Virus record (IMG/VR): IMGVR_UViG_3300039008_000325
Coordinates: 49,372 to 113,371 of that record
Strand: one strand, 5' to 3'
Length of the DNA stretch: 64,000 bases
Source of the DNA: a virus
Taxonomy: Duplodnaviria > Heunggongvirae > Uroviricota > Caudoviricetes
Part shown: in pieces, positions 29,075 through 45,267 of the stretch
Layout: every line of letters starts with the position of its first letter
Position numbering within the stretch: position 1 is the first letter of the stretch
Notes under the pieces: generated by a model
The model's input: only the letters and a program-made list of their open reading frames with translations
Databases searched by the model: none
What the model was told of the DNA's origin: nothing
Made by a program: the position numbers and the translations under genes

Positions 29075-30355
29075 ATGTTACAATTTTTCACAGAAATGAG
29101 AAATGAATTAACTAATACTAATTCAAGAAAAGAAAAAGAAGAAATTCTAAAAAAATATTATGAAAAAGATTCTAAATTGTATACTATAGGTTTTTCTTAT
29201 ATGTATAATTATGATCAAATTTATGGTGTTACATTTGATAAATGTCAAGAAAGATCTGATTTAATAACGCTACCTGCTAGTGATGATTATAAGATCACAG
29301 ATTTATTAGATAGTTTAAATAGTAGACATATTACTGGTCATAATGCAATTGCAGAGGTGAACACATTTGTATTATGTCATGAAAAATATAAAGAGATTAT
29401 TAGTTGTTTTATTGATAAAGATTTAAAATGTGGTGTTGGTATTCCTTCAATTAATAGACATAGAAAGGTTGTTAAAACATTTGATGTAGCTTTAGCTAAT
29501 AAATTTGATGAAAAACATCTTAAGAAACATGAAAAATGGTTAATATCTAGAAAATTAGATGGTGTTAGGTGTATAGCTATTATTAAAGATAATGATGTTA
29601 AATTCTATTCTAGACAAGGTAAAGAATTCTTTACATTAGGTGTGTTAAGAGAAGAATTACTAAAAAGTGATATTAAAGAAGGTGTATTAGATGGTGAACT
29701 TTGTTTAACTGATGAAAATGGTAATGAAGATTTTATTGGTATTATTAAACAAATGAGAAAAAAAGATCACACAATTGAAAACCCTCAATATAAAGTATTT
29801 GATTTCTTAACAATTGAAGAATTTGAATCTAAAAAAAGTGACAGAGATCTTTACTTAAGATTAGGTACTTTACATGCACGTAATATATTTAAGCTTGATC
29901 ATGTAGAAATATTGCAACAATATGAATATAATGATGATAATTTAGCAGATATGACAACTAAAGCTGAAGAAAATAATTGGGAAGGTTTAATGCTTAGAGC
30001 TAATACTGGTTATGAAGGTAAAAGATCTAATAATCTTCTTAAAGTTAAGAAAATGCAAGATGAAGAATTTAAAATTGTAGATGTTATATATGGTAAGAAA
30101 CCTATGTTATGTGGTGATAATGTAATGCATGAACAAGATACATTAGCAGCTGTTGTAATTGACTTAGGAGATGGTAATAAGGTTCAAGTTGGTAGTGGAT
30201 TTAGTGATTATGATAGATTAGCATATTATAACAAACCTGAACTATTAGTCGGGAAAATGATAACAGTTCAATTCTTTGAAAAGACTGTTGATAAAAATGG
30301 TAAACCAAGTTTAAGGTTCCCAGTATTTAAATGTATTAGAGAAAATGGAGAATAA
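29075..30355 (+). CDS. ATP-dependent DNA ligase
   Basis: nucleotidyltransferase motif I KLDGVRC (KxDGxR), motif-V-like LLKVKK, 426 aa. Confidence 0.7.
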   Translation: MLQFFTEMRNELTNTNSRKEKEEILKKYYEKDSKLYTIGFSYMYNYDQIYGVTFDKCQERSDLITLPASDDYKITDLLDSLNSRHITGHNAIAEVNTFVLCHEKYKEIISCFIDKDLKCGVGIPSINRHRKVVKTFDVALANKFDEKHLKKHEKWLISRKLDGVRCIAIIKDNDVKFYSRQGKEFFTLGVLREELLKSDIKEGVLDGELCLTDENGNEDFIGIIKQMRKKDHTIENPQYKVFDFLTIEEFESKKSDRDLYLRLGTLHARNIFKLDHVEILQQYEYNDDNLADMTTKAEENNWEGLMLRANTGYEGKRSNNLLKVKKMQDEEFKIVDVIYGKKPMLCGDNVMHEQDTLAAVVIDLGDGNKVQVGSGFSDYDRLAYYNKPELLVGKMITVQFFEKTVDKNGKPSLRFPVFKCIRENGE

Positions 30356-30356
30356 A

Positions 30357-30611
30357 ATGAAAAGAATATTAATAGCATTATTGTTAGTTAGTAATATATC
30401 GGTAGCTAGTGAAATTCAATGTAATAAATTTATTAAATTAGATTGTGATGAATCTATCACATATATAAATCCTTGTCATATTCAAGAGATTAAAACATCT
30501 AATGGATATATCGATCAAATAGATAATGGTATATATTTAGATGATGAATGTTTAAACAGTTTAATCGAACAACTAAATGTAGTTGAAGCAAAAAAAGTAG
30601 GTGAAGAATAA
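30357..30611 (+). CDS. small secreted protein
   Basis: signal peptide MKRILIALLLVSNISVA-SE; start chosen at ATG with GGAG SD. Confidence 0.4.
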   Translation: MKRILIALLLVSNISVASEIQCNKFIKLDCDESITYINPCHIQEIKTSNGYIDQIDNGIYLDDECLNSLIEQLNVVEAKKVGEE

Positions 30612-31147
30612 TGATAATAGGAATTTGTGGAAAGAAAATGTCAGGTAAAACGTTTACTTCAAATGCTTTAGTTGATATTTTAGATGCAAAACGTTTAGCT
30701 CTAGGAGATGGAGTTAAAGAAGCAGCAATGCTAATATATGGTTTAACATATGATGAATGTTATGATCAAAATCTCAAAGAAAAAGTTCTGGATAGATATC
30801 CGTTCATATCACCTAGAGAAATCTTACAAAGATTAGGTACAGATGGGTGTAGAGATATTGAACCAGCAACTTGGGTAGAATATTTAAAGCGTAATAACAA
30901 AACAGATGGTAAAGATGTTCATATTATTGAAGATATCAGATTTCCAAATGAATTACCTTTATGTGATTTAGTATTCTATATTAAAAGTGATACTGTAGAA
31001 GATATCGATACACATGAATCAGAAAACAGTATTAATGAATCACATGCAGATTATGTTATGTTAAATGATATGAAAACATATGTACATGTAGAAAAGATTC
31101 AAAGAATTATTAAAGATAAACAAAAGGAGATGGAAAATGGTAGCTAG
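30611..31147 (+). CDS. deoxynucleoside monophosphate kinase (T4 gp1-like)
   Basis: P-loop GICGKKMSGKT. ILQRLGTDGCRDIEPATWVEY matches the T4 gp1 pattern LMQALGTDLIVNNFDRMYWVKL. GVKEAAMLIYGL matches PIKDALAYAWGV. Confidence 0.7.
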   Translation: MIIGICGKKMSGKTFTSNALVDILDAKRLALGDGVKEAAMLIYGLTYDECYDQNLKEKVLDRYPFISPREILQRLGTDGCRDIEPATWVEYLKRNNKTDGKDVHIIEDIRFPNELPLCDLVFYIKSDTVEDIDTHESENSINESHADYVMLNDMKTYVHVEKIQRIIKDKQKEMENGS

Positions 31148-31352
31148 TACTTTATTTACATTAATTTTGATTATAAGTTTATTTTCTTGGTTATGGAAGA
31201 AATTCTCAGAAGAAGATAAAACGGTTGTTGATAATAAAATCGATAAGATTAATAATATCACAAAAGAATATGATAAAATAGTTAACTTTGAAAAGAATAA
31301 TAAAGATTATGAAAACAAAGTTAACAAAGTAAATACATTTAAACAAAAATAA
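31137..31352 (+). CDS. small membrane protein
   Basis: N-terminal TM LFTLILIISLFSWLW. Confidence 0.35.
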   Translation: MVASTLFTLILIISLFSWLWKKFSEEDKTVVDNKIDKINNITKEYDKIVNFEKNNKDYENKVNKVNTFKQK

Positions 31353-31373
31353 TAAACAAAAAGGAGAACAATC

Positions 31374-32648
31374 ATGTATAATGATAATTACAATACAAAC
31401 GCTCAATCAAGTTCAGATGCTCTTGGTTGGTTACAATCACTAACACCAAAGAAAATTAAACTTCTTGTAGTTGGAGTAATAGCATTTATAGCTCTATGTT
31501 GGACAGCACCAAATCTATTTGAAACAAATGAATTTGGTAACTATCAAATCAAACAAGCAGCTGTAACAGGTGAAATTTCAGTTAGAAATAAACCAGGTCT
31601 ATATGGACAAAACTTTGGAACAATTCACACTTATAAAATTTCAGATGAAAATTACTTCTCAGATTCTGCTATCGAAGGTGGTAATGATGAAATGGAACAA
31701 CCTATTAAAGTTCTATTTAGTGATGGATCAACAGTAACAATTAAAGGTATGATTAAATTTAGATTATCTCAAAATGAAGAAATGCAAAAGAAACTTCATA
31801 AAGATTTTAAATCATATGAAAATGTTAAAAGAGGTCTTATTAGACAAGTAGTTGTTGAATCTTTAATGCAAACTGCAACATTAATGACAGCTGAAGAACT
31901 TTATTCTTCTAGAAGAGCTGAATTTACAGCAGTAACTGAAGATCAAATCAGAAATGGTATATACACTACAGTAACAACTGAAGTTCAAGATATAGATACT
32001 GATGGTACTAAATTTAGAAGAAAAGTAACAAGCTTAAAAACAGATAAAGATGGTAACTTTATTATTAGAAAAGAATCACCATTCAAAAAATATGGTATTG
32101 AAATTCTACAATTTGTTATTAAGAAACCTAAATTTGATAACACTATTACAGCTCTAATTGCTAAGAAAAAAGAAGCAGAACAAAAGAAAGTAGTTGCTAA
32201 AGCAGATGCAGAAAAAGCAAAACAAGATGCTATTACAGTTAGAGAACAAGGTAAAGCTAAAGTTGCTAAAGCAGAAGCAGAAGCGTTAATTGAAAAGAAA
32301 AAAGCTGTAATTGAAGCTCAAAAGAATAGAGAAGTTGCTGAAGAAAATGCTAAGAAAGCACTTGCAGAAGCAAAAGCTATTAGAGCAAAAGGTGAAGCTG
32401 AAGCACATGCTGCTAAATTAAAAGTTAAAGCTGGTCTTACACCTCTTGAAAAAGCTACAATTGAAAAAGAAACTAGAATTGGTATAGCTGAAGCGAATGC
32501 AAAATTCCAACCAGCACCTAATGCAAAAGTTGTATATGTTAATTCAGGTGGAGCTAAAGGTACTAATCAAGGATCAGGAAATGTATTAATGGATACATTA
32601 AGCATTTCAATGATGAAAAACTTGATTGATACTAATAATAACAAATAA
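31374..32648 (+). CDS. SPFH/band-7-like membrane protein
   Basis: N-terminal TM LLVVGVIAFIALCW, central SPFH-like beta/alpha region, A/K/E-rich coiled coil C-terminus. Confidence 0.45.
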   Translation: MYNDNYNTNAQSSSDALGWLQSLTPKKIKLLVVGVIAFIALCWTAPNLFETNEFGNYQIKQAAVTGEISVRNKPGLYGQNFGTIHTYKISDENYFSDSAIEGGNDEMEQPIKVLFSDGSTVTIKGMIKFRLSQNEEMQKKLHKDFKSYENVKRGLIRQVVVESLMQTATLMTAEELYSSRRAEFTAVTEDQIRNGIYTTVTTEVQDIDTDGTKFRRKVTSLKTDKDGNFIIRKESPFKKYGIEILQFVIKKPKFDNTITALIAKKKEAEQKKVVAKADAEKAKQDAITVREQGKAKVAKAEAEALIEKKKAVIEAQKNREVAEENAKKALAEAKAIRAKGEAEAHAAKLKVKAGLTPLEKATIEKETRIGIAEANAKFQPAPNAKVVYVNSGGAKGTNQGSGNVLMDTLSISMMKNLIDTNNNK

Positions 32649-32660
32649 TTATTGAAATAA

Positions 32661-32692
32661 ATTGAGTGGTATTTTAAATAATATCACTCAAT
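32661..32692 (+). terminator. RNA hairpin (weak terminator)
   Basis: ATTGAGTGGTAT-loop-ATATCACTCAAT, no strong T tract. Confidence 0.3.
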
Positions 32693-32711
32693 TAACTTAG
32701 GGAGAGTTAAA

Positions 32712-33179
32712 ATGCTTTGGATAGTAGGAATTACAATTTGCTTATTCATTTTTGTACTTTTATTAGCAATATATTTTGATACGCGAGATGAAGATACAAT
32801 ACCAGGAATACTTTTTTCAGGACTTATAGCGATTGGATTATTTTTCAGTTTACATGGTGAAAATAAAGATCTTTATTACTTAGTAATGCGACAACCCATT
32901 ACTGAATGTTTTGATAAAATAAATTATAATGGTCAAGAACACAATTTAGAGTTAGTTGAAACACTTCGTGATATTGAAATTGATGGTGTTAGATTTGAAA
33001 TGACTATGTATGAATATAATAGAATAAAATCTAGAGTTGATAGATCTTGTAATAAAGTTGATAATATATTTAAAGAATTAGGTGCTCGTAGACTAATTGA
33101 TGAAAGTATTCAAACAGAGCTTGATAAAGAAGAAAATGAAGCTAATATAGAAGTCAATACAGAATATGATAACTGGTAG
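32712..33179 (+). CDS. membrane protein
   Basis: two N-terminal TM segments. Confidence 0.4.
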   Translation: MLWIVGITICLFIFVLLLAIYFDTRDEDTIPGILFSGLIAIGLFFSLHGENKDLYYLVMRQPITECFDKINYNGQEHNLELVETLRDIEIDGVRFEMTMYEYNRIKSRVDRSCNKVDNIFKELGARRLIDESIQTELDKEENEANIEVNTEYDNW

Positions 33180-33188
33180 GAGAATAAA

Positions 33189-33482
33189 ATGAAATATAAA
33201 TTATTATCAGCTAAATTTTCTCAATTAGAAAAAATGGTGAATTCATATATTGAAGATGGTTGGACTCCACTAGGTGGGTTAACTACTGATGGACCTGAAT
33301 TAGTTCAAGCAATGATAAAATATGATGTTGAAGATTATTTAGGAAAACCTAATTTATCTGATATAAAAGAAACTGAAGAATCTAAATTGAAAGAAATGAT
33401 GAAAGATCCTAGATATTGGAAAGAAAAAGATCCTAAATTTAGAGAACAAGTAGAAGAAGGATTTAAAAGATTATATAGTTAA
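33189..33482 (+). CDS. hypothetical protein
   Basis: 97 aa. Confidence 0.4.
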   Translation: MKYKLLSAKFSQLEKMVNSYIEDGWTPLGGLTTDGPELVQAMIKYDVEDYLGKPNLSDIKETEESKLKEMMKDPRYWKEKDPKFREQVEEGFKRLYS

Positions 33483-33502
33483 TCATAATAGAGGAGAGAG
33501 TT

Positions 33503-33925
33503 ATGAGTATCAAACAAAACATCAAAGAGAAGATGTTATCTAATATACCAGAAAAGCAAGCTTATAAAAATATCTATGCAATATTAGAACGTATTGAAAA
33601 AGATAATATGAAAGAGCTTACTGATGCTGAAGTTATTAAAATATTTGAAAAACAAGTAAAGAAACAAGAAGTTACTTATAAATTATATGTTGATAATAAT
33701 AGAAGTGAACTTGCAGAAAAAGAAAAGGTAGAAATTGATATAATGACTCCTTTTATTCCTCAAAAAATGTCTGAAGATGAAGTTAAACAACATATTAATG
33801 AATATTTAGAAGAATGTAAATCTAATTCAGAAGAACCTAATATGAGAGGTGTTATGAATTTCTTTAACAAATATTCAGATGTTGATAGAAAACTATTATC
33901 AGAACTATTCAGACAATCAATTTGA
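33503..33925 (+). CDS. GatB/YqeY-domain protein
   Basis: KELTDAEVIKIFEKQVKKQEV...AEKEKVEIDIMTPFIPQKMSEDEVKQHINEYL matches YqeY signature ELTDEEV...AEKEK.EI..L..YLP...SEEE. Confidence 0.65.
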   Translation: MSIKQNIKEKMLSNIPEKQAYKNIYAILERIEKDNMKELTDAEVIKIFEKQVKKQEVTYKLYVDNNRSELAEKEKVEIDIMTPFIPQKMSEDEVKQHINEYLEECKSNSEEPNMRGVMNFFNKYSDVDRKLLSELFRQSI

Positions 33926-33936
33926 GGAGATTAGAA

Positions 33937-34154
33937 TGTTATTTATACAAATTTATTCATTACTATTATTAGGTATAATAATGTCATTTATGCTTGACTT
34001 TGAAGATTATATGAAGATGATAGATGAACATCTTAGAGATAACCCTGATTTAAATATTTATTCATTTATATTTTTATCTACACTATTTTCACCAATTTCA
34101 TTTATATATGCACTAATTGTGTGTGTAGCAGATTATTTTAAAGGAGAGAAATAA
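33937..34154 (+). CDS. small membrane protein
   Basis: start trimmed to ATG after GGAGATTAGA; two TM helices. Confidence 0.35.
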
Positions 34155-34525
34155 TGAGAAAAACAGAAGATTTATTTTATATAATAATTGCAATTGCATT
34201 CATATTATCAATACCATTTATGATTGGATGGTCTTATAAAACATTTGGTAAAACTTATCCAGCAGAAATATGTGTAAAATCAAAAGATATTCATATTATG
34301 AATTCTCAAAATGGAACTAAAAGAGAGAAGGTTGTTTTTGCTAAAGATGATGTATATAGTGTTAATGACTCAATGTGGGTTGGTCACTATAATTCATATA
34401 CAACTTATAATAAATTAGAACCTGGACATTGTTATGCAATTTTATATAATGGTCAAAGAATTGGTTCTATGAATATGAAAAGAAATATTATATCTGTTGT
34501 TAAAGAATTAGATGGAGAAGAATAA
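34154..34525 (+). CDS. membrane-anchored protein
   Basis: N-terminal TM FYIIIAIAFILSIPFMIGW. Confidence 0.4.
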   Translation: MRKTEDLFYIIIAIAFILSIPFMIGWSYKTFGKTYPAEICVKSKDIHIMNSQNGTKREKVVFAKDDVYSVNDSMWVGHYNSYTTYNKLEPGHCYAILYNGQRIGSMNMKRNIISVVKELDGEE

Positions 34526-34887: not shown

Positions 34888-34889
34888 TT

Positions 34890-36053
34890 ATGAAAGTAAT
34901 AAGCACAGAAAAAAAGCCAATAAAAACATGGTGTAATGAACCAGAAGAAGGTGCAATTGAACAAGCTAAAAATTTAGCTAATTTACCGTTCATCTTCAAA
35001 CACGTTGCTCTAATGCCAGATACACATCAAGGTTATGGAATGCCAATTGGTGGTGTTATAGCTACTGAAGGTGTGATAATTCCTAATGCTGTTGGTGTTG
35101 ATATTGGTTGTGGAATGTGTGCAGTTAAAACGAATCTTAAAGTATTTGATTTAGGTGATGATTTAGGTAATATTATGAGAGATATTAGACAAGCAATTCC
35201 ATTAGGAATGAATCATCATAAAGAAGATCAAGAATGGGAAGGTTTTATTAATTACCCAGATATAGATATATTATGTTCCAACATGAATAAAGCTAAAAGA
35301 TCGTTAGGTACATTAGGTGGCGGAAATCATTTCATTGAAATACAAAAAGATACTGATAATAATGTTTGGATAATGTTACATAGTGGTAGTAGAAACTTAG
35401 GTAAACAAATAGCAGATCATTATAATAAAAAAGCTTTGACATTATGTAAAATGTGGCATTCTAATGTTTATCCATTAGAAGGAAATGATGTATTACCATT
35501 CTTACCATTAGCTACTCAAGAAGGTAAAGAATATTTAGAAGCAATGAACTTTGCATTAGATTTTGCATTAGCTAACAGAATGCAAATGATTAATAAGTGC
35601 AAAGAAGCTTTCCAAAAATATATTGATTGTGAATTTGGTGAAGTTATTAATATACATCATAACTATGCAGCTATGGAAAATCATTTTGGTAAGAATGTTA
35701 TGGTTCATAGAAAAGGTGCAACCTCAGCTAGAAAAGGGCAATATGGAATTATACCAGGTAGTCAAGGAACATCTTCTTATATAGTTGAAGGATTAGGTAA
35801 TCCAGATAGTTTTATGAGTTGTTCACATGGTGCTGGTAGAAAAATGAGTAGAAAAGCTGCTAGAGAAAATCTATCAGTTGAAGAAGAAGTTAAATTACTT
35901 AATGATCAAGGTATTAAACACGCTATCAGAAATGTTAGTGATTTAGATGAAGCTCCTTCTGCTTATAAAGATATTAAAACTGTAATGGAAGAACAAGAGG
36001 ATCTTGTTAAAATATTAGTAGAACTTAAGCCATTAGGTGTTATTAAAGGGTAA
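34890..36053 (+). CDS. rtcB: RNA-splicing ligase RtcB
   Basis: RtcB metal/GTP motifs GGGNHFIEIQ, HNYAAMENHFG, MVHRKGAT, cysteine CGMCA. Confidence 0.85.
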   Translation: MKVISTEKKPIKTWCNEPEEGAIEQAKNLANLPFIFKHVALMPDTHQGYGMPIGGVIATEGVIIPNAVGVDIGCGMCAVKTNLKVFDLGDDLGNIMRDIRQAIPLGMNHHKEDQEWEGFINYPDIDILCSNMNKAKRSLGTLGGGNHFIEIQKDTDNNVWIMLHSGSRNLGKQIADHYNKKALTLCKMWHSNVYPLEGNDVLPFLPLATQEGKEYLEAMNFALDFALANRMQMINKCKEAFQKYIDCEFGEVINIHHNYAAMENHFGKNVMVHRKGATSARKGQYGIIPGSQGTSSYIVEGLGNPDSFMSCSHGAGRKMSRKAARENLSVEEEVKLLNDQGIKHAIRNVSDLDEAPSAYKDIKTVMEEQEDLVKILVELKPLGVIKG

Positions 36054-36057: not shown

Positions 36058-36408
36058 ATGACAAAACAAGTAATTGTACAACTAATAGAAGATGAGCTAA
36101 ACAAAATCAAAGGTATAGATAGTAAATCTATTGAATCTTTTAAACGTATTAAAAATATGTGTGATACAGTTTTAAACGTATATGAAGAACTTAATCAATA
36201 TTTTGAAAAGTTAAAGGAACAACAAGAACCTATGTTAGGTATTGGTTTAACTAAACCACCATATAGTTTTGCAACAACTGAAGCTTGTCCTCACTGCGGT
36301 GAATTAAGTTGTACTCAAAGAACACATTGTCCAAAATGTGGTAAAATTAAAATAAGTTTCGAAGTTGGAGATACATTAGATGATAGAAAAGACCCTTATA
36401 TTACTTAA
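36058..36408 (+). CDS. zinc-ribbon protein
   Basis: CPHCGELSCTQRTHCPKCGK; start trimmed to internal ATG. Confidence 0.4.
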   Translation: MTKQVIVQLIEDELNKIKGIDSKSIESFKRIKNMCDTVLNVYEELNQYFEKLKEQQEPMLGIGLTKPPYSFATTEACPHCGELSCTQRTHCPKCGKIKISFEVGDTLDDRKDPYIT

Positions 36409-36820
36409 ACCAGATGCAATTGGAAGAAAATTAATAGGTAAAATTATTAATATTCTAGAAGAAGCTGATTTATTAATTAAAGAAATAAAGACAGTTGAAC
36501 CAGAAATAGATCAACTAAAAAGACACTATAATCATTTACCAGAAGATATATTGAGAAATGTTATTCTATATATGACAAGTGATTTAATAGCTATGTCAGT
36601 TGAAGGTGAAAATGCTATATCTAAAGTTAGAAAATTGGTGGGTGATACTCAACCACTTGAAGCTGATATTGCAAGTATTCGTGGAAGATTTTCTAGTGAT
36701 AGTTATGCACAATCAAATAATGAAGGTAGAGCTATATTTAATCTAATACATGCTTCAGATAGTGTTGAAAATGCTAAAAGAGAATATGATATTTGGTTTA
36801 AATATGATAATACATTCTAA
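36380..36820 (+). CDS. ndk: nucleoside diphosphate kinase
   Basis: LILLKPDAIGRKLIGKII, IRGRFS, NLIHASDSVENAKREYDIWF match NDK signature incl. catalytic His. Confidence 0.85.
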   Translation: MIEKTLILLKPDAIGRKLIGKIINILEEADLLIKEIKTVEPEIDQLKRHYNHLPEDILRNVILYMTSDLIAMSVEGENAISKVRKLVGDTQPLEADIASIRGRFSSDSYAQSNNEGRAIFNLIHASDSVENAKREYDIWFKYDNTF

Positions 36821-37675: not shown

Positions 37676-38461
37676 ATGTATTATATAATTTACAAAATTA
37701 CTAACAGTTTAAATGATAAATTTTATATAGGTCAACATAGAACAAATAATTTAGAAGATGGTTATATGGGAAGTGGTTTATATATTAAAAATGCAAAGAA
37801 TAAATATAAAGAAGAATTTATTAAAATATTCAAAAAAGAAATATTAGAATATTGTGATAATTTTGATGATATGCAAATAAAAGAGGAATATTATATTAAA
37901 AATGAATATGATAATCCTCTTTGCACTAATATAAGATATGGTGGAAGTCAATCAATACATAGTGAAAAAACTAAAGAAAAGTTAAGTGAGTCACATAAGG
38001 GTAAAAAACTATCTAATGAACACAAAAATAAAATTCGTCAAGCTAATTTAGGTAAAGTTTTATCTCAAGAAACAAAAGATAAAATATCAAATTCTAAAAA
38101 ATTAAACATGACAGATGATATTAGAAAAAAGATATCAAAAGCAAGTAAAAATAGAAAAGTTTCACAAGAAACAAAAGATAAAATATCAAAAGCTAATAAA
38201 GGTAGAATTTTAGGTTCTCCATCTGAAAATACTAGGAAAAAGATATCAGATGCAACAAAAGGAAAACTTGTAAGTCAAGCCACTAAAGAAAAAATCAGTA
38301 TAGCTAGAAAAGGTTTAAAAAGATTAGATAGCACTAAATTAAAAATTTCAGAAAAACTTAAAAATAAATCAATTGAAATACATAAATGTCCTCATTGTGG
38401 TAAAGAAGGTAAAGGTCCAATTATGTTTAGATTTCATTTCCATAATTGTAAGAAGAAATAA
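37676..38461 (+). CDS. GIY-YIG homing endonuclease with NUMOD3 repeats
   Basis: YIIYKITNSLNDKFYIGQ...GYMGSG; five S..TK.KIS NUMOD3-like repeats; C-terminal CPHCG...HNC zinc finger. Confidence 0.8.
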   Translation: MYYIIYKITNSLNDKFYIGQHRTNNLEDGYMGSGLYIKNAKNKYKEEFIKIFKKEILEYCDNFDDMQIKEEYYIKNEYDNPLCTNIRYGGSQSIHSEKTKEKLSESHKGKKLSNEHKNKIRQANLGKVLSQETKDKISNSKKLNMTDDIRKKISKASKNRKVSQETKDKISKANKGRILGSPSENTRKKISDATKGKLVSQATKEKISIARKGLKRLDSTKLKISEKLKNKSIEIHKCPHCGKEGKGPIMFRFHFHNCKKK

Positions 38462-39629: not shown

Positions 39630-39643
39630 CGTGTGTTTCCTAA

Positions 39644-39663
39644 AATTATAAATAATTATATAA
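39644..39663 (+). promoter_or_regulatory. late promoter cassette
   Basis: exact consensus before prohead protease gene. Confidence 0.65.
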
Positions 39664-39685
39664 ATAAATAATAAAGGGAATAATT

Positions 39686-40321: not shown

Positions 40322-40339
40322 TTTTTAAGGAGATTTAAC

Positions 40340-41137
40340 ATGGTATCATTAACGGAGAGAGTTAATACAGCTTTTAATAAAGGTGTAGCTGCAGTAGAGA
40401 ATGTTATTGATTTGGCTATTAATGCTGAATTTAAATCAGTATCTACAGGTACATTTTATTCATTATTAACTAATGGTTTACAAAAAGGTTGTAATTATAG
40501 TGTAACAATAAGATATCCAGATATGATTACTGATCGTTATAGTAAAAGTATTGATAAATATAATATATTTTGTGAAGAAATTGACGCTCCATCAAATAGT
40601 TTATTAACACATATACATAGAGTAAACGGTAAATCAAGACGTGTTCCTTATGCAAGAGAACAAGCTGATGTTAATATGACATTTATGAATGATGGTAGAT
40701 TAAGAATGAATGAAATATTTGTTTATTGGATGAATCACATGATTGATCAACAAACAAATAAGACTATGAATTTTGAACAAGATTATGTGTGTGATATTAT
40801 CATTGCAGTTTTAGATAACACTGATCAAGTTATAATGAAATATACATTAAAAAACGCTAAACCAATTAATTTAGCTCCTGTTAATTATAATTATGGTTTA
40901 AAAAATGAATATACGAAATCACAAGTAACATTTACATATGATTATGTTGTTGATGAGTTCTTATTAAGTGAAAAAGTAGAAAAAATATTAGAAAATGTAA
41001 CAGTGTTTGGTAAATCTGCTTCAGACTTTATTCCATTCATTGATGATGTTGATAATCTTTATAATAATGTTATTAACACTAAAGATTCACTTACCAATAA
41101 TTTAAGAAGTGCTAGTAATTCTATACTTGACTTCTAA
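40340..41137 (+). CDS. hypothetical head-module protein
   Basis: 265 aa between protease and scaffold genes. Confidence 0.45.
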   Translation: MVSLTERVNTAFNKGVAAVENVIDLAINAEFKSVSTGTFYSLLTNGLQKGCNYSVTIRYPDMITDRYSKSIDKYNIFCEEIDAPSNSLLTHIHRVNGKSRRVPYAREQADVNMTFMNDGRLRMNEIFVYWMNHMIDQQTNKTMNFEQDYVCDIIIAVLDNTDQVIMKYTLKNAKPINLAPVNYNYGLKNEYTKSQVTFTYDYVVDEFLLSEKVEKILENVTVFGKSASDFIPFIDDVDNLYNNVINTKDSLTNNLRSASNSILDF

Positions 41138-41157
41138 GGGAAAAAGTAAGTATCGAA

Positions 41158-41177
41158 AATTATAAATAATTATATAA
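41158..41177 (+). promoter_or_regulatory. late promoter cassette (followed by degenerate second copy 41195-41217)
   Basis: exact consensus. Confidence 0.6.
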
Positions 41178-41237
41178 TAAGGTTTTTAATAAAAATAATT
41201 ATAAATAAATATATAACAACCAAAAAGAGAAGAAAAT

Positions 41238-41624
41238 ATGTTGCAAGAAAAATTAAGTAATTTATTAACTGATAAATTAAAATCTTTAGAGCTTCAAGAA
41301 AGAAAAGCAGCCTTTGTTGATATGTCAGAAATCAATGAAGAATTAGACAATGATAAAAGAGCTGTTATTATCGAAGAAGATGTAGAAGAAATCGAAGAAG
41401 AAATTACAGAAGCTAAAAAAGATGTAAAAATTAACAGCAAGGTATCAGTTAACGTTGAATCATTAGATGATAAGATTCAAAAGAAAGTTCAAAAACTTAT
41501 GAAGAAAACTAATGACAAGAAACTATTAGTTATTTCTTTAGATGGTGATAATGTAGAGCTTGGTGCAAATAGAACAGATGTTTCAAATACAGTTCTTGTA
41601 CCATTAAAGAGCGTAGGAGAATAA
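41238..41624 (+). CDS. acidic prohead-core-like protein
   Basis: 128 aa, E/D-rich (EEDVEEIEEEITEAKKD). Confidence 0.4.
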   Translation: MLQEKLSNLLTDKLKSLELQERKAAFVDMSEINEELDNDKRAVIIEEDVEEIEEEITEAKKDVKINSKVSVNVESLDDKIQKKVQKLMKKTNDKKLLVISLDGDNVELGANRTDVSNTVLVPLKSVGE

Positions 41625-41625
41625 A

Positions 41626-41988
41626 ATGTCATTTATGGGTAAATTAGAAAAAACATCTAAAATGGATTTTAGCGAATTGGTGCAAAAAGTATTACAAGAA
41701 AAATACGAAGCTTCTCTAAAAGAAATGGATAAAAATGAAGAAGAATTACCTCTAGAAGAAAGAGTAATTAAGAAATTAGTTATCAGAGGTGGTAAAAAAG
41801 TACGTAAAAAAACTTCAACAAGAGATAAAGCTAAAATCGTAGGTGGTAAAGAAGTTCTTATGAAATCATCTGAAAGATTAGCTAGAAAGAAAGCTGCTAA
41901 ACGTAGAGCTATTAAATTAAGAAGCAAACAATCTGTGATTAGTAGAAAACAAAAAAAATCAATGAAAAAGAGAAAATTTATTAAATAA
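41626..41988 (+). CDS. highly basic small protein (internal/DNA-binding head protein candidate)
   Basis: K/R-rich C-terminal half KKVRKKTSTRDKAK...RKKAAKRRAIKLRSKQSVISRKQKKSMKKRKFIK. Confidence 0.4.
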   Translation: MSFMGKLEKTSKMDFSELVQKVLQEKYEASLKEMDKNEEELPLEERVIKKLVIRGGKKVRKKTSTRDKAKIVGGKEVLMKSSERLARKKAAKRRAIKLRSKQSVISRKQKKSMKKRKFIK

Positions 41989-42003
41989 CAAAAGGAGTTT
42001 AAT

Positions 42004-42789
42004 ATGTCAATTAAATTAGATAAATATAATTTAACAGAAGCAGACGCTAATGAAATCCTTGATGCTATTAAAGAAAAAGTTATTTCTGAAAAAGCTGAAT
42101 TAGAAGCTCAAAAAGCTGAATTAGAAGCTAAATTAGAAGAATCAAAAACTTTAATTAAAGAGGGTGTAGAAGCTCTTGAAGAAGCTAAAGCAGAAAAATC
42201 TGATGATGAAAAGATTGCTGAAGCTGTTAATGCACAAGTTAAGTTATATAAAGAAGCTAAAGATAAAGAAATTGAAAGTTTCTTAGAAGCAGAAGTTGAA
42301 AAATTCGTTGAATCAAACAAAACAAACATCGTTAATAACATGAAGCTAAATTTTGCTGAAAATCTTATCGAAGATGTTTATGAAGTATTTGAAAAATACA
42401 ACATTACGTTTGATGCTGAAAAAGTAGATGCTTTAGAAGAAGCTTATGCTGAAATCGAAGTTAAAGATGCAAATAATGTTGAATTAACTGCTAAATTAGA
42501 AGAAGCAAACAATAAAATTGCTGAAGCTGAAGAAAAAATGAAATTAGAAGAAAAAATTGCTGATTTAGATGAAGTATCAAAAGAAAAAGCAATTGCTCTT
42601 TACAATGAATCAAAATCATTAGATTCTATAGACGTAATCATAGAAGCAGCTAAAAAACCATCAAAAGATGATGAAACAGATGTTGATGACGTTGATTTAG
42701 AAGATGATGACAAAAAGAAAAAAGATATCAAAGAGAAAGAAAAAAATATGAAAGAATCTAAAGCTCTTGATATTACAGTTAATATTTAA
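42004..42789 (+). CDS. prohead core scaffold protein (T4 gp22-like)
   Basis: 261 aa acidic coiled-coil (EAE/KAELEA repeats) immediately upstream of the major capsid gene. Confidence 0.7.
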   Translation: MSIKLDKYNLTEADANEILDAIKEKVISEKAELEAQKAELEAKLEESKTLIKEGVEALEEAKAEKSDDEKIAEAVNAQVKLYKEAKDKEIESFLEAEVEKFVESNKTNIVNNMKLNFAENLIEDVYEVFEKYNITFDAEKVDALEEAYAEIEVKDANNVELTAKLEEANNKIAEAEEKMKLEEKIADLDEVSKEKAIALYNESKSLDSIDVIIEAAKKPSKDDETDVDDVDLEDDDKKKKDIKEKEKNMKESKALDITVNI

Positions 42790-42814
42790 TTAATTAAATA
42801 AAGGAAAACAAAAA

Positions 42815-44170
42815 ATGAAAACACTATCATTAAAAGAAAGAAAAGCGATTTTAGATTATGCTTCTAAAGTAGTTGTTTCTGAAAATAAAAAAATGGATGA
42901 AGGTAGTTTAAAAGAAAGAGTGTTCGCTCAATTAGTTAGCAACCAAAAAGATGCTAAACATGAAGGACGTTCTGGTGAATTCTTTGAAAAAACATTCCAA
43001 GATGTTAATGCTGAAATCTTAGATGCTAAAGAAGAAGATATCAAAGAATCTAAAGAAAACTTAAAAGAAGCTACTTTATCTGGTAATATCGCTGGTTATA
43101 CTCCAGTAATGATCCAAATGTTAAGAAGAACAGTTGTTGATTCAATTTCATTCGAAATTATTGGTGTTCAACCAATGGCTCAACCAACTGGATATATCTT
43201 CTCATATGTTCCTAGATATGGATCTGGTGCTCAAGATGGTCATGAAGCGTTCAAAACTGAACCAAATTCAGCTTTCACAGGTACTGGTACTCAAACAGGT
43301 ACTAACCCTTCAGTATTAAATGATGCTGTTCCTGGACCTTATACAGCTGGTGACGGAATGTCAACTGCAGCTTTAGAAGCTTTAGAAACTGGTGTTAATG
43401 ACTGGGCTGAAATGAAATTCACTATCGAAAGAGCATCTGTTGAAGCTAAAGGTAGAGGTGTAAGAGCTGAATATTCTGAAGAAATGATCACAGATCTTAA
43501 AAACTTACACGGATTAGACGCTGGTATGTTATTAGCTGACTTACTTTCTCAAGAAGTTGTTGTAGAACAAAACAGAGAAATCGTAAGAAAAATTTATATC
43601 TCAGCTTTACCTGGTGCACAAGAAGGTACTACAACAGCTGGTATTTGGAACTTAGATAACGATTCTAAAGGTAGATGGGTAGATGAAAATGTTAAATCAT
43701 TTGTTACTCAAATCAACAGAGAATCAAGCTCAATCTTCCAATCAATCAGAATGGGTAGAGGTAACTTTGGTATTACTACATTAGATTTATCTGATGCATT
43801 AGCAATCTTACCACAATTCAGACCAACTTCAGTTACAGCTGACGGTACTGCTTCATTAACTGGTATGTTAGGTGATAAAAAGATCATAGTTGATCCATAT
43901 TTATCAGACATCGCTGACGGTGTATTCTTATCAGGATACAAAGGTTCTAACGAACTTAAAGCTGGTATGTTCTTCACTCCTTACGTTGGAATGCAATATT
44001 ATGATGCAGTTCACTCTGAATCTTTCCAACCTACTAAAGGTGTTAAGTCTAGATATGGTTTAATTGCTAATCCATTCGCAACAGCTACAGCTACAACTCA
44101 AGGTGACGGTACAATTGCTGCTAACACTAACCAATTCTTCAGAAGATTGAAAGTAGAAGCTGTATTTTAA
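42815..44170 (+). CDS. major capsid protein (T4 gp23-like)
   Basis: ISFEIIGVQPMAQPTGYIF matches the T4 gp23 pattern IAFDICGVQPMNSPTGQVF. The C-terminus FFTPYVGMQYY...FQPTKGVKSRYGLIANPFA...FFRRLKV matches gp23 YYAPYVAL...FQPVMGFKTRYGIGINPFA...YFRRVYV. Confidence 0.93.
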   Translation: MKTLSLKERKAILDYASKVVVSENKKMDEGSLKERVFAQLVSNQKDAKHEGRSGEFFEKTFQDVNAEILDAKEEDIKESKENLKEATLSGNIAGYTPVMIQMLRRTVVDSISFEIIGVQPMAQPTGYIFSYVPRYGSGAQDGHEAFKTEPNSAFTGTGTQTGTNPSVLNDAVPGPYTAGDGMSTAALEALETGVNDWAEMKFTIERASVEAKGRGVRAEYSEEMITDLKNLHGLDAGMLLADLLSQEVVVEQNREIVRKIYISALPGAQEGTTTAGIWNLDNDSKGRWVDENVKSFVTQINRESSSIFQSIRMGRGNFGITTLDLSDALAILPQFRPTSVTADGTASLTGMLGDKKIIVDPYLSDIADGVFLSGYKGSNELKAGMFFTPYVGMQYYDAVHSESFQPTKGVKSRYGLIANPFATATATTQGDGTIAANTNQFFRRLKVEAVF

Positions 44171-44211
44171 TTGATAGTAATCGTTAGATTACAAAGATTA
44201 AAAGAAAAATA

Positions 44212-44243
44212 AAAAGAGTTAACTTAATTGTTAACTCTTTTTT
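44212..44243. terminator. bidirectional intrinsic terminator (between capsid gene and convergent minus-strand gene)
   Basis: AAAAGAGTTAAC-TTAATT-GTTAACTCTTTT; A-run upstream and T-run downstream. Confidence 0.8.
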
Positions 44244-44244
44244 A

Positions 44245-45267
44245 TTAGTAATCACATAACATATCAAATTTAGATATCATTTTATCTACATCACATTGAG
44301 GTATTACTTTCCCATAACGATACTCATTCATCTCTTTCTGTTCTTTTAATCCAACTAATCTAAATAAGTATTTTATATTTCTATCATCTCTCTTAAAGAT
44401 TCTACGTTCTTTACGTGATACATTAACTTCATCAATTATAATATCATAGCCTTCTCGACAATATCTATTATAATCTTTTAATAGTTCTTTATCTATTTGT
44501 TTTTGTTGTTCATTACTTAATGAATTCCATCTATCAACATATGTTTCACCAGTACCGTGTTTCATTACATATTCATCTCTACTAATAACAACAGTATCAG
44601 GATTTTCTTTTAATATTTCTTTACATAAAGATGATTTACCAGAAGCTGGTAACCCTATTAAAATAGTAGTTGTAGGTTTACCCTCATCATATTCAACTTC
44701 TTGACTAATTAATCTTGGTGGAAAGAATCCATCTCCTGATGAAATTCTACCTTGACTATCATATATAGTAAAGTTATGTAATAGATCTAACTCTTCTTGA
44801 GTCATATTCTTTTCTACTAATCTTAAAGTCTTTTCATCTTTTACCAATAATTGATGAAAATTAATTACTTTAATAATTGGTAACATATCAGATTCTTTAA
44901 TATAACCTAATTTAACTAATTCTAATAGTAAATCAATAGCATACATAGAAGACACCTTTTCATGATTCTTAAAGAAGACTCTTGTTCTTTTACCACTATC
45001 ATCAACATCTCTAGTATACACCTTACCAATATCATGTAATAAAGCAATAACTCTTTCTACATTAGTCTTACATAATTTATAAACCATCATAGTATGAACC
45101 CAAACAGAACCTTCTTCATGATAAGGGTTACTGTAATAAACACCTTGACCACTAGATATTACTCTATAATCATCACTTACATAACCGTGATCACAATTTG
45201 ACATTTTAATATAAAGGTCGAAATGAAAATTTCTAAACCATTCAATTAAATTCATTTTTTCTTCCAT
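44245..45267 (-). CDS. HD-domain phosphohydrolase fused to T4-Pnk-like polynucleotide 5'-kinase
   Basis: N-terminal ALLHDIGK HD motif. C-terminal TTTILIGLPASGKSSLCKEILKENPDTVVISRDEY matches the T4 Pnk kinase pattern ILTIGCPGSGKSTWAREF...INRDDY. Confidence 0.65.
   Translation of the reverse strand: MEEKMNLIEWFRNFHFDLYIKMSNCDHGYVSDDYRVISSGQGVYYSNPYHEEGSVWVHTMMVYKLCKTNVERVIALLHDIGKVYTRDVDDSGKRTRVFFKNHEKVSSMYAIDLLLELVKLGYIKESDMLPIIKVINFHQLLVKDEKTLRLVEKNMTQEELDLLHNFTIYDSQGRISSGDGFFPPRLISQEVEYDEGKPTTTILIGLPASGKSSLCKEILKENPDTVVISRDEYVMKHGTGETYVDRWNSLSNEQQKQIDKELLKDYNRYCREGYDIIIDEVNVSRKERRIFKRDDRNIKYLFRLVGLKEQKEMNEYRYGKVIPQCDVDKMISKFDMLCDY

What the first reader, a model, noticed from the sequence alone, without database searches (positions are those of the whole stretch)
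29075..45267. tRNA-repair/translation-maintenance island adjacent to a 20-tRNA array
The following are all encoded within a 16-kb stretch. RtcB RNA ligase (34890-36053) joins 2',3'-cyclic-P/5'-OH ends. An HD-phosphohydrolase-polynucleotide-kinase fusion lies at 44245-45267 on the minus strand. There are also a GatB/YqeY-domain protein (33503-33925, a tRNA-associated fold), a DNA ligase, NDK and dNMP kinase. Together with 20 tRNA genes, this looks like a counter-defence against host anticodon nucleases of the PrrC/RloC/VapC/colicin type. It is analogous to T4 Pnk+Rnl1 but uses RtcB chemistry.
Basis: partly seen in the sequence, partly recalled or inferred. Interest (0 to 1): 0.6.

Follow-up and report, generated by a model that had tools for sequence, protein, structure and literature searches.

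The report
Two separate phage RNA-repair enzymes
A large T4-like phage from a metagenome carries an RtcB RNA ligase, an HD-domain polynucleotide kinase and 18 tRNA genes, which is the familiar large-phage kit for keeping translation running; the genes are not one island and the two repair enzymes use incompatible chemistries.

Summary
RtcB is intact, with every catalytic residue conserved. The HD-kinase fusion is a genuine HD-Pnk, and its kinase half is structurally closest to T4 polynucleotide kinase. YqeY, ATP-dependent DNA ligase, NDK and dNMP kinase are confirmed.

The framing fails. There are 18 intact tRNAs, plus 2 fragments truncated by homing-endonuclease cassettes, and the array ends 8.2 kb upstream. 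The 16-kb stretch mixes nucleotide-metabolism genes, a homing endonuclease and the whole capsid module.

RtcB and HD-Pnk lie 8 kb apart on opposite strands in separate transcription units. Their chemistries are alternatives. HD-Pnk makes 3'-OH/5'-P ends, which RtcB cannot seal. In 18 of 23 related phage loci, HD-Pnk sits within 5.4 kb of a T4 Rnl1-type ligase, and none has RtcB within 10 kb. No Rnl1 occurs in the 80 kb I could read; 57 kb of the contig remain unread.

None of the 21 closest RtcB loci shares any neighbour with this one. One real link exists: the tRNA array, the ligase-to-NDK block and HD-Pnk each follow an enriched sigma-70-like motif, so all three are probably early.

The counter-defence idea is already published for large phages. 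This is a new member of a known kind, of low to moderate interest.

The parts
34890..36053 (+). RtcB 3'-phosphate/5'-hydroxyl RNA ligase (387 aa, bacterial-size, no intein)
   Evidence: Pfam RtcB E 4e-118 and phrog_1075 E 2e-129. The alignment to P. horikoshii RtcB conserves Asp/Cys (GVDIGCG), Asn-His (GGGNHF), His (LHSGSR), His (HHN), the GMP-accepting His (SHGAGR) and the C-terminal Lys.
44245..45267 (-). HD-Pnk: N-terminal HD phosphoesterase fused to a C-terminal P-loop polynucleotide 5'-kinase (340 aa)
45288..45316 (-). Sigma-70-like promoter TTGATT-N17-TATAAT directly upstream of HD-Pnk, followed by an AGGAG ribosome-binding site
   Evidence: The motif occurs 5 times in the window against 0.27 expected; 0 of 100 shuffles reach 5.
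45330..45355 (-). Terminator-like hairpin separating the HNH endonuclease gene from HD-Pnk
44211..44242 (-). Terminator-like hairpin just after the HD-Pnk stop codon, between HD-Pnk and the convergent gp23 gene
33503..33925 (+). YqeY/GatB-tail domain protein (140 aa), same strand and block as RtcB
   Evidence: Pfam YqeY E 3.8e-20, phrog_1460 and PDB YqeY 8xje E 1.6e-9. It is rare in phages: 10 of 50,697 records match, and at least one (probably both) of the two 'Acinetobacter phage MD-2021a' records is bacterial chromosome DNA.
28592..28620 (+). Sigma-70-like promoter TTGATT-N17-TATAAT ahead of the ligase-to-NDK block
   Evidence: No terminator-like site (region from 28500) and no TATAAATA on the + strand lies between here and 36820.
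29075..30355 (+). ATP-dependent DNA ligase (T4 gp30-like). It belongs to the same early block but is a DNA-replication gene, not part of RNA repair.
   Evidence: Pfam DNA_ligase_A_M + OB_2, phrog_114 E 4e-80, and PDB DNA ligases 6rau E 6e-30 and T4 ligase 6dt1 E 8e-20.
30611..31147 (+). dNMP kinase (nucleotide metabolism)
   Evidence: Pfam DNMK E 1e-13
36380..36820 (+). Nucleoside diphosphate kinase (nucleotide metabolism)
   Evidence: Pfam NDK E 9e-34
15083..20857 (+). Array of 18 intact tRNA genes, all with an encoded 3' CCA. Homing-endonuclease ORFs and two truncated tRNA fragments are interspersed. A TTGATT-N17-TATAAT promoter lies upstream at 14713-14741.

Best explanation
The window is part of a T4-like myovirus genome of at least 141 kb and about 26% G+C, from an anaerobic setting. 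Its host is unknown.

It carries three physically separate, probably early-expressed units that bear on the translation apparatus:
1. An array of 18 tRNA genes.
2. RtcB, inside an 8-kb same-strand block of early genes running from the DNA ligase to NDK. The block also holds a YqeY tRNA-binding-fold protein.
3. HD-Pnk, a self-contained cassette on the opposite strand with its own promoter and terminators. It is wedged next to an HNH endonuclease, between the capsid gene and the terminase gene.

RtcB would reseal RNA broken by metal-independent ribonucleases, which leave 2',3'-cyclic-P or 3'-P plus 5'-OH ends. It does so in one enzyme, using GTP and Mn2+ through a His-GMP intermediate. HD-Pnk would take the same kind of break down the other route. 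The HD domain removes the 2',3'-cyclic or 3'-phosphate and the kinase domain phosphorylates the 5'-OH. That yields 3'-OH/5'-P ends for an ATP-dependent Rnl1-type ligase, exactly as T4 Pnkp feeds Rnl1.

The two are therefore parallel, mutually exclusive routes, not steps of one pathway. The Rnl1 partner is not in the 80 kb examined. By analogy with Campylobacter phage CP220, I expect it elsewhere in the genome.

What is shown: gene identities, catalytic motifs, the fold, gene order, promoter-motif enrichment, and the HD-Pnk/Rnl1 linkage in relatives. What is inferred: early timing, RNA (tRNA) as the substrate, and the purpose, which is keeping translation alive against host anticodon or ribosomal RNA nucleases. 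DNA ligase, dNMP kinase and NDK are ordinary replication and nucleotide-supply genes that merely share the early block.
For: - Phage identity: portal, gp15, sheath, NrdD/G, prohead protease, scaffold, gp23 and TerL. The window maps to positions 49094-113093 of a 141,128-bp JGI contig.
- RtcB is intact.
- HD-Pnk motifs and fold.
- HD-Pnk linkage to Rnl1: 18 of 23 two-domain HD-Pnk loci have a T4 Rnl1-type ligase (Pfam RNA_lig_T4_1 and T4_Rnl1_C) within 5.4 kb or less, and 0 of 23 have RtcB within 10 kb. In Campylobacter phage F336 the two genes are 1.2 kb apart.
- An unlinked precedent: CP220 keeps HD-Pnk at 53.5 kb and RnlA at 162.7 kb.
- Separate transcription units: terminator-like hairpins and a promoter bracket HD-Pnk.
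- Promoter classes: TTGATT-N17-TATAAT occurs 5 times against 0.27 expected. Copies sit before the tRNA array, the ligase-to-NDK block and HD-Pnk. The T4-type late motif TATAAATA sits 25-45 nt before most structural genes and homing-endonuclease genes, and is absent from the + strand between 24492 and 37077.
- Chemistry and the general paradigm: PMC7824862 states that polynucleotide kinases and phosphoesterases go with ATP-grasp ligases, and that RtcB acts directly on 3'-P or cyclic-P ends. PMC6097658 describes Runella HD-Pnk.
- Need for repair as well as replacement: the phage tRNAs can read only about half of the codons in the window's genes. Glu, Asn, Thr, Val, Gly, Pro and Leu-UUR are not covered.
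Against: - No Rnl1 or Rnl2 was found in the window or in the 16 kb of flanks I could read; the best profile hit had E 0.74. The heal-and-seal route is therefore incomplete as far as seen.
- 57 kb of the contig could not be read.
- The sigma-70-like scan as a whole is not enriched: 112 sites against 131 expected. The early-timing claim rests on one specific motif.
- Nothing here identifies the RNA substrate, the host or any host nuclease.
- Runella HD-Pnk also acts on DNA ends, so an RNA role is not the only possibility.
- I found no experimental demonstration that a phage RtcB counters a defence system in the held literature.
Confidence: 0.6

Rival explanations
1. The 16-kb stretch is one tRNA-repair and translation-maintenance island. 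HD-Pnk, RtcB, YqeY, DNA ligase, NDK and dNMP kinase cooperate with the tRNA array in a single pathway that mimics T4 Pnk+Rnl1 with RtcB as the sealing enzyme.
For: All the named genes exist within 16 kb. RtcB, YqeY, DNA ligase, dNMP kinase and NDK share one tightly packed same-strand block. That block, the tRNA array and HD-Pnk all follow the same enriched promoter motif.
Against: - HD-Pnk products (3'-OH, 5'-P) are not RtcB substrates. This is established enzymology, summarised.
- HD-Pnk lies on the other strand. The capsid module separates it from RtcB, and its own terminators bracket it.
- 0 of 23 HD-Pnk loci have RtcB nearby, and 18 of 23 have Rnl1.
- 0 of the 21 closest RtcB loci have YqeY, HD-Pnk, NDK or a DNA ligase within 10 kb.
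- YqeY-bearing phages show no RtcB nearby.
- The DNA ligase is a T4 gp30-type DNA ligase.
Confidence: 0.08
2. HD-Pnk heals DNA ends rather than RNA ends. It would convert 3'-P/5'-OH nicks or breaks in phage DNA into ends that the phage's ATP-dependent DNA ligase (29075-30355) can join. Such breaks could arise from host nucleases or from the many homing endonucleases. On this reading it has nothing to do with tRNA.
For: - Runella HD-Pnk is described as a DNA/RNA end-healing enzyme (title cited).
- The only ATP-dependent ligase in the 80 kb examined is a DNA ligase.
- Locus L019 has Rnl1, a DNA ligase and HD-Pnk within 4 kb. Several loci that carry only the kinase domain have a DNA ligase nearby.
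- HD-Pnk sits next to an HNH endonuclease both here and in CP220.
Against: - The dominant conserved neighbour of two-domain HD-Pnk is Rnl1, which carries the tRNA-specific C-terminal domain. It is found in 18 of 23 loci, against a DNA ligase in 1 of 23.
- The closest structural relatives of the kinase domain are RNA-repair kinases: T4 Pnk and Pnkp1 of the Pnkp1/Rnl/Hen1 complex.
Confidence: 0.15
3. RtcB, and perhaps HD-Pnk, serve housekeeping RNA maintenance rather than counter-defence. They would repair ribosomal RNA or tRNA damaged by the phage's own takeover nucleases or by stress, or process phage transcripts. No host anticodon nuclease would be involved.
For: Bacterial RtcB repairs damaged rRNA and tRNA in non-phage contexts (the abstracts of PMC9304027 and PMC7790460, listed). 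RtcB homologues occur in 708 phage records across very different hosts, which suggests a general benefit.
Against: Nothing in the window encodes an obvious RNase that would create such substrates. Among the ORFs of 29-46 kb that were scanned, including all of 100 aa or more (several small ORFs were not scanned), Pfam, PHROGs and NCBIfam show none. The T4 Pnkp-Rnl1 precedent is a counter-defence.
Confidence: 0.15

Closest known systems
T4 Pnkp + Rnl1 (pseT/rnlA) tRNA heal-and-seal pathway against the PrrC anticodon nuclease
   Different: An HD domain replaces the HAD (DxDxT) phosphatase, and it sits N-terminal instead of C-terminal to the kinase. No Rnl1 was found in the 80 kb examined.
Runella slithyformis HD-Pnk (Munir & Shuman 2017; described in PMC6097658)
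   Same: The domain order is the same: an N-terminal HD 2',3'-phosphoesterase followed by a C-terminal 5'-OH polynucleotide kinase. Both families tend to lie beside an ATP-dependent polynucleotide ligase.
   Different: Runella's is bacterial and sits in a four-gene cluster with Tpt1 and a methyltransferase-HIT protein. Here it is a stand-alone phage cassette. I could not test direct sequence homology to the Runella protein because its sequence is not held.
HD-kinase proteins of Campylobacter T4-like phages (Eucampyvirinae: CP220, CPt10, F336; phrog_6931)
   Same: These are the closest named homologues, at 31-34% identity over 82-93% of the protein. In CP220 the gene also lies near the capsid gene and a homing endonuclease, and is unlinked to RnlA.
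   Different: No RtcB lies within 8 kb of the HD-kinase gene in the two loci examined, F336 and CP220; their whole genomes were not checked for RtcB. Fletcherviruses keep Rnl1 1.2 kb away.
Phage-encoded RtcB ('tRNA splicing ligase', phrog_1075), together with large tRNA sets, in jumbo and other large phages (Iyer et al. 2021, PMC7824862)
   Same: The enzyme family and the proposed role are the same. [quoted passage not shown]
   Different: This phage is about 141 kb or larger and T4-like rather than jumbo. Its RtcB is at most 64% identical to any IMG/VR relative and 45% to any isolated phage.
E. coli RtcB/RtcA RNA repair operon
   Same: RtcB is of the short bacterial size with identical catalytic residues.
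   Different: There is no RtcA cyclase, RtcR regulator, archease or PrfH partner nearby. The protein scores below the cut-offs of the NCBIfam RtcB equivalog models.

Membership tests
RtcB RNA ligase | Full-length match to the RtcB family profile | tested here: met
   Pfam PF01139 at 395.7 bits against a cut-off of 27; phrog_1075 E 2e-129
RtcB RNA ligase | Metal-binding Asp/Cys/His residues and the GMP-accepting histidine | tested here: met
   The alignment to P. horikoshii RtcB (1uc2) conserves D95/C98, N202/H203, H234, H329 and H404, plus the following Arg residues and the C-terminal Lys. The residue numbering is from my own knowledge of that structure.
RtcB RNA ligase | GTP/Mn2+-dependent joining of 3'-P or 2',3'-cyclic-P ends to 5'-OH ends | not testable with these tools
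   Biochemistry is required
HD-Pnk end-healing enzyme (Runella type) | N-terminal HD domain with the H...HD...H...D metal-binding motif | tested here: met
HD-Pnk end-healing enzyme (Runella type) | C-terminal P-loop polynucleotide 5'-kinase domain | tested here: met
   GLPASGKS P-loop, R229-D230, D278-x-x-N281 and R287. The best structural matches are T4 Pnk and Pnkp1. phrog_505 'polynucleotide kinase' scores 5.7e-12.
HD-Pnk end-healing enzyme (Runella type) | Encoded beside an ATP-dependent polynucleotide ligase | tested here: not met
   No RNA ligase lies in the window or the 16 kb of flanks, and the DNA ligase is 14 kb away. The feature is met in 18 of 23 homologous phage loci. CP220 is an unlinked precedent.
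HD-Pnk end-healing enzyme (Runella type) | Direct sequence homology to the characterised Runella protein, and its enzymatic activities | not tested
   The Runella sequence and the primary paper (PMC5237116) are not held. The activities need biochemistry.
T4 Pnkp-Rnl1 pathway | HAD-type (DxDxT) 3'-phosphatase domain fused C-terminal to the kinase | tested here: not met
   The domain order is HD then kinase. There is no HAD match, and the protein ends about 50 residues after the kinase core.
T4 Pnkp-Rnl1 pathway | Rnl1 ligase encoded by the same phage | tested here: inconclusive
   Rnl1 is absent from the 80 kb read; the best profile HMM hit has E 0.74. 57 kb of the contig are unread. A database search listed only the best 120 of 384 hits, none from this contig.
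YqeY / GatB C-terminal domain | Match to the YqeY profile and to solved YqeY structures | tested here: met
   Pfam PF09424 at 72.9 bits against a cut-off of 27; PDB 8xje E 1.6e-9 and 1ng6 E 3.8e-7. The tRNA-affinity role of the domain in D. radiodurans GlnRS comes from PMC1865053. No function is known for the free protein.
Genomic island / functional gene cluster | Members contiguous, co-oriented and found together in related genomes | tested here: not met
   The capsid module and a homing endonuclease interrupt the stretch, and HD-Pnk is on the opposite strand. No shared neighbours appear in the 21 RtcB loci, the 23 HD-Pnk loci or the 4 YqeY-bearing phage loci with 6-10 kb flanks.

The most novel reading that the evidence does not exclude
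The phage may truly lack any ATP-dependent RNA ligase. In that case the free-standing YqeY protein, encoded about 1 kb upstream of RtcB in the same early operon, could act as a tRNA-binding adaptor that directs RtcB to broken tRNAs. That would make it a functional counterpart of the tRNA-specificity domain of Rnl1, or of archease. The orphan HD-Pnk would then have a role other than feeding a ligase, for example destroying 2',3'-cyclic-phosphate RNA ends that signal damage to host defence or RtcR-type sensors.
Probability: 0.05. Interest if true: 0.6.

Novelty: new member of a known kind. Interest (0 to 1): 0.3.

Why it matters
As it stands, this is one more large phage with the known translation-protection kit of tRNAs plus RNA-end repair enzymes. 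Three things give it some value.

1. PHROGs files the phage HD-kinase fusion family (phrog_6931) as 'unknown function', and GenBank records annotate it inconsistently as AAA ATPase, polyA polymerase or polynucleotide kinase. The motif, fold and Rnl1-linkage evidence gathered here supports annotating it as an HD-type replacement of the T4 Pnkp phosphatase module.

2. One genome carries both RtcB and an HD-Pnk. That makes it a natural system for asking whether the direct-ligation and heal-and-seal routes compete, or serve different nucleases.

3. A free YqeY gene is very rare in phages, and here it sits in the RtcB operon.

None of this changes current understanding unless experiments show an unexpected interplay.

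Tried and rejected
1. I looked for the rest of the 141-kb contig to find an Rnl partner. Two exact-pattern scans of metagenome contigs found nothing, so the contig is not in that collection. The look-up of encoding contigs reaches only 10 kb beyond window genes; that gave -10 kb and +6 kb, with no RNA ligase.

2. I ran an Rnl1 profile against the 5.8-billion-protein set, hoping to spot a hit whose longest contig is 141,128 bp. Only the best 120 of 384 hits are listed and none comes from this contig, so the result is inconclusive.

3. I tested the split-tRNA or tRNA-intron idea for RtcB. The two truncated tRNA 5' fragments beside homing-endonuclease cassettes have no matching 3' halves anywhere in the window, so they are remnants rather than split genes awaiting ligation. 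Rejected.

4. I tested for YqeY-RtcB linkage in other phages. The few phage records with YqeY show no RtcB, HD-Pnk or Rnl1 within 6-10 kb.

5. I checked whether the DNA ligase might really be an RNA ligase. The weak Pfam RNA_ligase hit is below its cut-off, and the best PDB and NCBIfam matches are all DNA ligases. Rejected.

6. I looked for archease, RtcA or PrfH partners among the small ORFs flanking RtcB. Pfam, NCBIfam and PHROGs give nothing relevant, and none of these ORFs recurs beside RtcB in 21 related loci.

7. I compared codon usage of late and early genes against the tRNA set. There is no difference between the gene classes. The tRNAs cover some major codons (AAA, CAA, AGA, UCA) but not others (UUA, GAA, AAU, ACA, GUU, GGU). 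Without the host genome this cannot discriminate between hypotheses.

8. A megablast of the 16 kb against 50,697 phage records found no match.

Full report
WHAT THE WINDOW IS

The sequence has about 26% G+C. It encodes a T4-type portal, gp15, tail sheath, anaerobic ribonucleotide reductase NrdD/NrdG, prohead protease, scaffold, gp23 major capsid protein and large terminase. It has no near-identical relative among 50,697 deposited phage genomes.

The exact HD-kinase protein occurs on a 141,128-bp JGI metagenome contig and on several Logan contigs. From the reported ranges, the window is positions 49094-113093 of that contig. This is therefore an uncultured T4-like myovirus of at least 141 kb, of which I could read 80 kb: the window plus 10 kb upstream and 6 kb downstream.

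CHECKING THE OBSERVATION

- RtcB (34890-36053) matches Pfam RtcB at E 4e-118. Aligned to the Pyrococcus horikoshii structure, it keeps the Asp/Cys pair, the Asn-His, the three further histidines including the GMP-accepting one in SHGAGR, and the C-terminal lysine.
- The minus-strand ORF at 44245-45267 has a Pfam HD domain and an AAA_33 P-loop kinase domain. It matches phage family phrog_6931 over its full length at E 1.8e-52.
- YqeY (33503-33925) is confirmed by Pfam and by solved YqeY structures.
- The ligase at 29075-30355 is a DNA ligase by Pfam, NCBIfam, PHROGs and PDB. Its best solved relatives are ATP-dependent DNA ligases, including T4 DNA ligase.
- dNMP kinase and NDK are confirmed.

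Three parts of the description do not hold.

1. The tools find 18 intact tRNA genes, not 20. ARAGORN finds 18. Rfam finds 17 above its gathering score, with tRNA-Trp just under it. The missing two are probably the truncated tRNA 5' fragments I saw in the raw sequence, described under 'Other things seen' below.
2. The array (15083-20857) is not adjacent. NrdG, NrdD, a baseplate-wedge gene and several unknown ORFs fill the 8.2 kb before 29075.
3. The 16-kb 'island' also contains an SPFH protein, a GIY-YIG/NUMOD3 homing endonuclease and the whole capsid-morphogenesis module: protease, a tail-tube-like gene, scaffold and gp23.

WHAT THE HD-KINASE IS

Eleven homologues with the same domain order share these invariant residues: H49, H57, H77-D78, H101, H137 and D169 in the N-terminal half; a GLPASGKS P-loop, R229-D230, D278 and R287 in the C-terminal half. 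The ISRD and D-x-x-N...R motifs are those I know from T4 Pnk and other polynucleotide kinases. That comparison rests on my own knowledge.

An AlphaFold model built on that alignment has mean pLDDT 78.

- Foldseek's top hits are all T4 polynucleotide kinase.

[quoted passage not shown] I could not compare it directly with the Runella sequence. Its nearest named relatives are proteins of Campylobacter T4-like phages, at 31-34% identity. Those are annotated variously as AAA ATPase, polyA polymerase or polynucleotide kinase/phosphatase.

DO THE TWO REPAIR ENZYMES WORK TOGETHER?

Chemistry says no. RtcB joins a 3'-phosphate (or 2',3'-cyclic phosphate) to a 5'-hydroxyl. HD-Pnk removes the 3' or cyclic phosphate and phosphorylates the 5'-hydroxyl, which gives the 3'-OH/5'-P ends used by ATP-dependent ligases. 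The jumbo-phage survey by Iyer et al. says the same. [quoted passage not shown]

Comparative genomics agrees.

- I collected 23 loci with a two-domain HD-Pnk homologue: 21 IMG/VR contigs and Campylobacter phages F336 and CP220.
- A profile built from their neighbouring ligases belongs to Pfam RNA_lig_T4_1 and T4_Rnl1_C, which is the T4 Rnl1 tRNA-repair ligase type. It finds an Rnl1 within 0.04-5.4 kb of HD-Pnk in 18 of the 23.
- Nine of those loci are close relatives of one another, so the number of independent lineages is nearer nine.
- None of the 23 has an RtcB within 10 kb.
- Conversely, none of the 21 IMG/VR loci with the closest RtcB relatives (42-64% identity) has a YqeY, HD-Pnk, NDK or DNA-ligase homologue within 10 kb.
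- None of the small ORFs flanking RtcB here recurs there either.

The natural partner of HD-Pnk is therefore Rnl1. The window's gene neighbourhood is not a conserved module.

In this phage, the Rnl1 profile finds nothing in the window or in the readable flanks; the best E-value is 0.74. CP220 shows that HD-Pnk and RnlA can lie far apart in one genome, at 53.5 kb and 162.7 kb. An Rnl1 in the unread 57 kb is therefore a reasonable expectation, but it is unproven. My attempts to read that part failed.

TRANSCRIPTION UNITS

The T4 late-promoter octamer TATAAATA lies 25-45 nt upstream of the portal, sheath, protease and terminase genes, many other structural genes, and the homing-endonuclease ORFs. 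It is absent from the + strand between 24492 and 37077. Its overall count is only mildly above chance, at 45 against 31 expected.

A different motif, TTGATT-N17-TATAAT, occurs five times against 0.27 expected, and 0 of 100 shuffles reach five. All five copies are intergenic:

- 14713 (+), ahead of the tRNA array;
- 28592 (+), ahead of the block running from the small ORFs through DNA ligase, dNMP kinase, SPFH, YqeY and RtcB to NDK;
- 36824 (+), just after NDK;
- 24467 (-);
- 45316 (-), directly ahead of HD-Pnk.

Variants with N16 spacing lie at 15168 and 27469.

HD-Pnk is bracketed by terminator-like hairpins at 45355-45330 and 44242-44211 and has an AGGAG ribosome-binding site. No terminator-like site lies between 28592 and 36820.

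I infer, but have not shown, that the tRNAs, the RtcB-containing block and HD-Pnk are all early units read by host RNA polymerase, while the structural genes are late. The link is one of timing, not of position or pathway.

THE tRNA SET

The 18 tRNAs carry these anticodons: CAU three times (one with the initiator-like C1-A72 mismatch), UUU, UCU, ACG, GUG, GAA, GUC, CCA, UUG, UGC, GCU, UGA, GCA, UAG, GAU and GUA. All end in an encoded CCA.

Codon usage in 67 window genes shows no difference between late and early genes. The tRNAs match several dominant codons (AAA, CAA, AGA, UCA) but not others (UUA is 74% of Leu; also GAA, AAU, ACA, GUU and GGU). With standard wobble they can read roughly half of all codons. 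The phage therefore still depends on host tRNAs for Glu, Asn, Thr, Val, Gly, Pro and most Leu.

That is compatible with needing repair as well as replacement. Without the host genome it discriminates nothing.

YqeY

The domain raises tRNA affinity when fused to Deinococcus GlnRS, and part of it forms the tRNA-binding tail of GatB. The function of the free protein is unknown (PMC1865053).

It is rare in phages. Ten of 50,697 records match. The 'Acinetobacter phage MD-2021a' record I inspected carries an rpsU-yqeY chromosomal context with purF and pyrD, so it is bacterial DNA. The remaining records are megaphages, two Stenotrophomonas jumbo phages and faecal contigs. Where I could look, no RtcB, HD-Pnk or Rnl1 lies within 6-10 kb.

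Its position about 1 kb upstream of RtcB in the same block is suggestive, but nothing else supports a functional link.

COMPARISON WITH WHAT IS KNOWN, AND VERDICT

The closest system in logic is T4 Pnkp-Rnl1 against PrrC. HD-Pnk is a domain-swapped analogue of Pnkp: an HD domain in place of the HAD phosphatase, with the opposite domain order. RtcB is a second, independent route.

[quoted passage not shown] That survey mentions HD-like phosphoesterases 'in a small number' of phages. RtcB homologues occur in 708 deposited phage records.

I found no paper in the held library showing experimentally that a phage RtcB defeats a defence system. The physiological role remains an inference, here as elsewhere.

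The finding is a correct gene inventory wrapped in an over-integrated model. It is a new member of a known kind, and the interest is low to moderate.

OTHER THINGS SEEN

The tRNA array is riddled with homing-endonuclease cassettes.

- Two truncated tRNA 5' portions are present. One is Ile-GAU-like and breaks in the anticodon loop at about 16241. The other is Gly-UCC-like and breaks in the T loop at about 18351.
- Each is followed at once by the same 24-nt sequence, AAAATTATAAATAATTATATAATA, which contains a late-promoter octamer, and then by an endonuclease ORF.
- Each endonuclease ORF ends exactly where the next intact tRNA begins.
- No 3' halves exist in the window, so these are disrupted genes, not split genes needing a ligase.

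Noticed in passing
window 16205-16990 and 18296-18957 (also 15227-15942): Two truncated tRNA 5' fragments are present. One is Ile-GAU-like and is cut in the anticodon loop; the other is Gly-UCC-like and is cut in the T loop. Each is followed by the identical 24-nt AAAATTATAAATAATTATATAATA and then a homing-endonuclease ORF (16283-16990 zinc-finger/endonuclease-I-like; 18388-18957 HNH). Each ORF ends exactly at the start of the next intact tRNA. No 3' halves occur in the window.
   Followed up: partly
window 19380-19757, 19936-20364, 20372-20680: Three paralogous small ORFs lie between tRNA genes. All start MKKR(L/N)GFVSNSSSSSF and have acidic C-terminal halves. No informative Pfam or PHROGs match was found; there is only a borderline hit to phrog_7397, of unknown function.
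   Followed up: partly
window 14713, 24467(-), 28592, 36824, 45316(-); variants at 15168 and 27469: The motif TTGATT-N17-TATAAT is strongly enriched: 5 found, 0.27 expected, and 0 of 100 shuffles reach 5. Every copy is intergenic, so it is probably this phage's early promoter class. TATAAATA (the T4 late type) precedes most structural genes and the homing-endonuclease genes.
   Followed up: partly
proteins P0013-P0040, aligned in A1: Bacterial homologues of about 300 aa have the reverse domain order, with the kinase first and the HD domain second. They include one on a Clostridium perfringens plasmid. The same two modules have therefore been fused in both orientations.
   Followed up: no
L111 (CAKLQH020000004.1, 'Acinetobacter phage MD-2021a'): This record in the phage collection carries rpsU-yqeY, purF, pyrD, type II secretion genes and a haemagglutinin. 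It looks like bacterial chromosome DNA rather than phage, so it inflates the count of phage YqeY genes.
   Followed up: no
L108 13861-15459 (about 3-4.6 kb upstream of the window start): The same phage contig encodes a Cpn60/GroEL-family chaperonin of 532 aa, next to UvsY-like, Metallophos (gp46/47-like) and PDDEXK genes.
   Followed up: no
window 45406-46149 (-) and 54731-55312 (+): These are paralogous HNH/endonuclease-VII-like ORFs, 47% identical. One of them is the immediate neighbour of HD-Pnk, and in CP220 the HD-kinase gene also lies beside a homing endonuclease. With the GIY-YIG gene at 37676-38461 and the NUMOD3 ORF at 53518-54195, the window holds at least seven endonuclease-like genes.
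   Followed up: no
window 40340-41137: A tail-tube-like gene (weak Pfam gp19 hit; JGI annotates Phage_TTP_2) sits inside the head module, between the prohead protease and the scaffold and capsid genes. That placement is unusual for a T4-like gene order.
   Followed up: no
window 15083-20857: All 18 tRNA genes encode their 3' CCA. The first CAU tRNA (15083-15159) has the initiator-type C1-A72 mismatch.
   Followed up: partly
window 6250-6702: An ORF directly after the portal gene carries a Tn7 TnsA-like N-terminal (restriction-endonuclease-fold) domain, according to JGI's precomputed Pfam hits.
   Followed up: no
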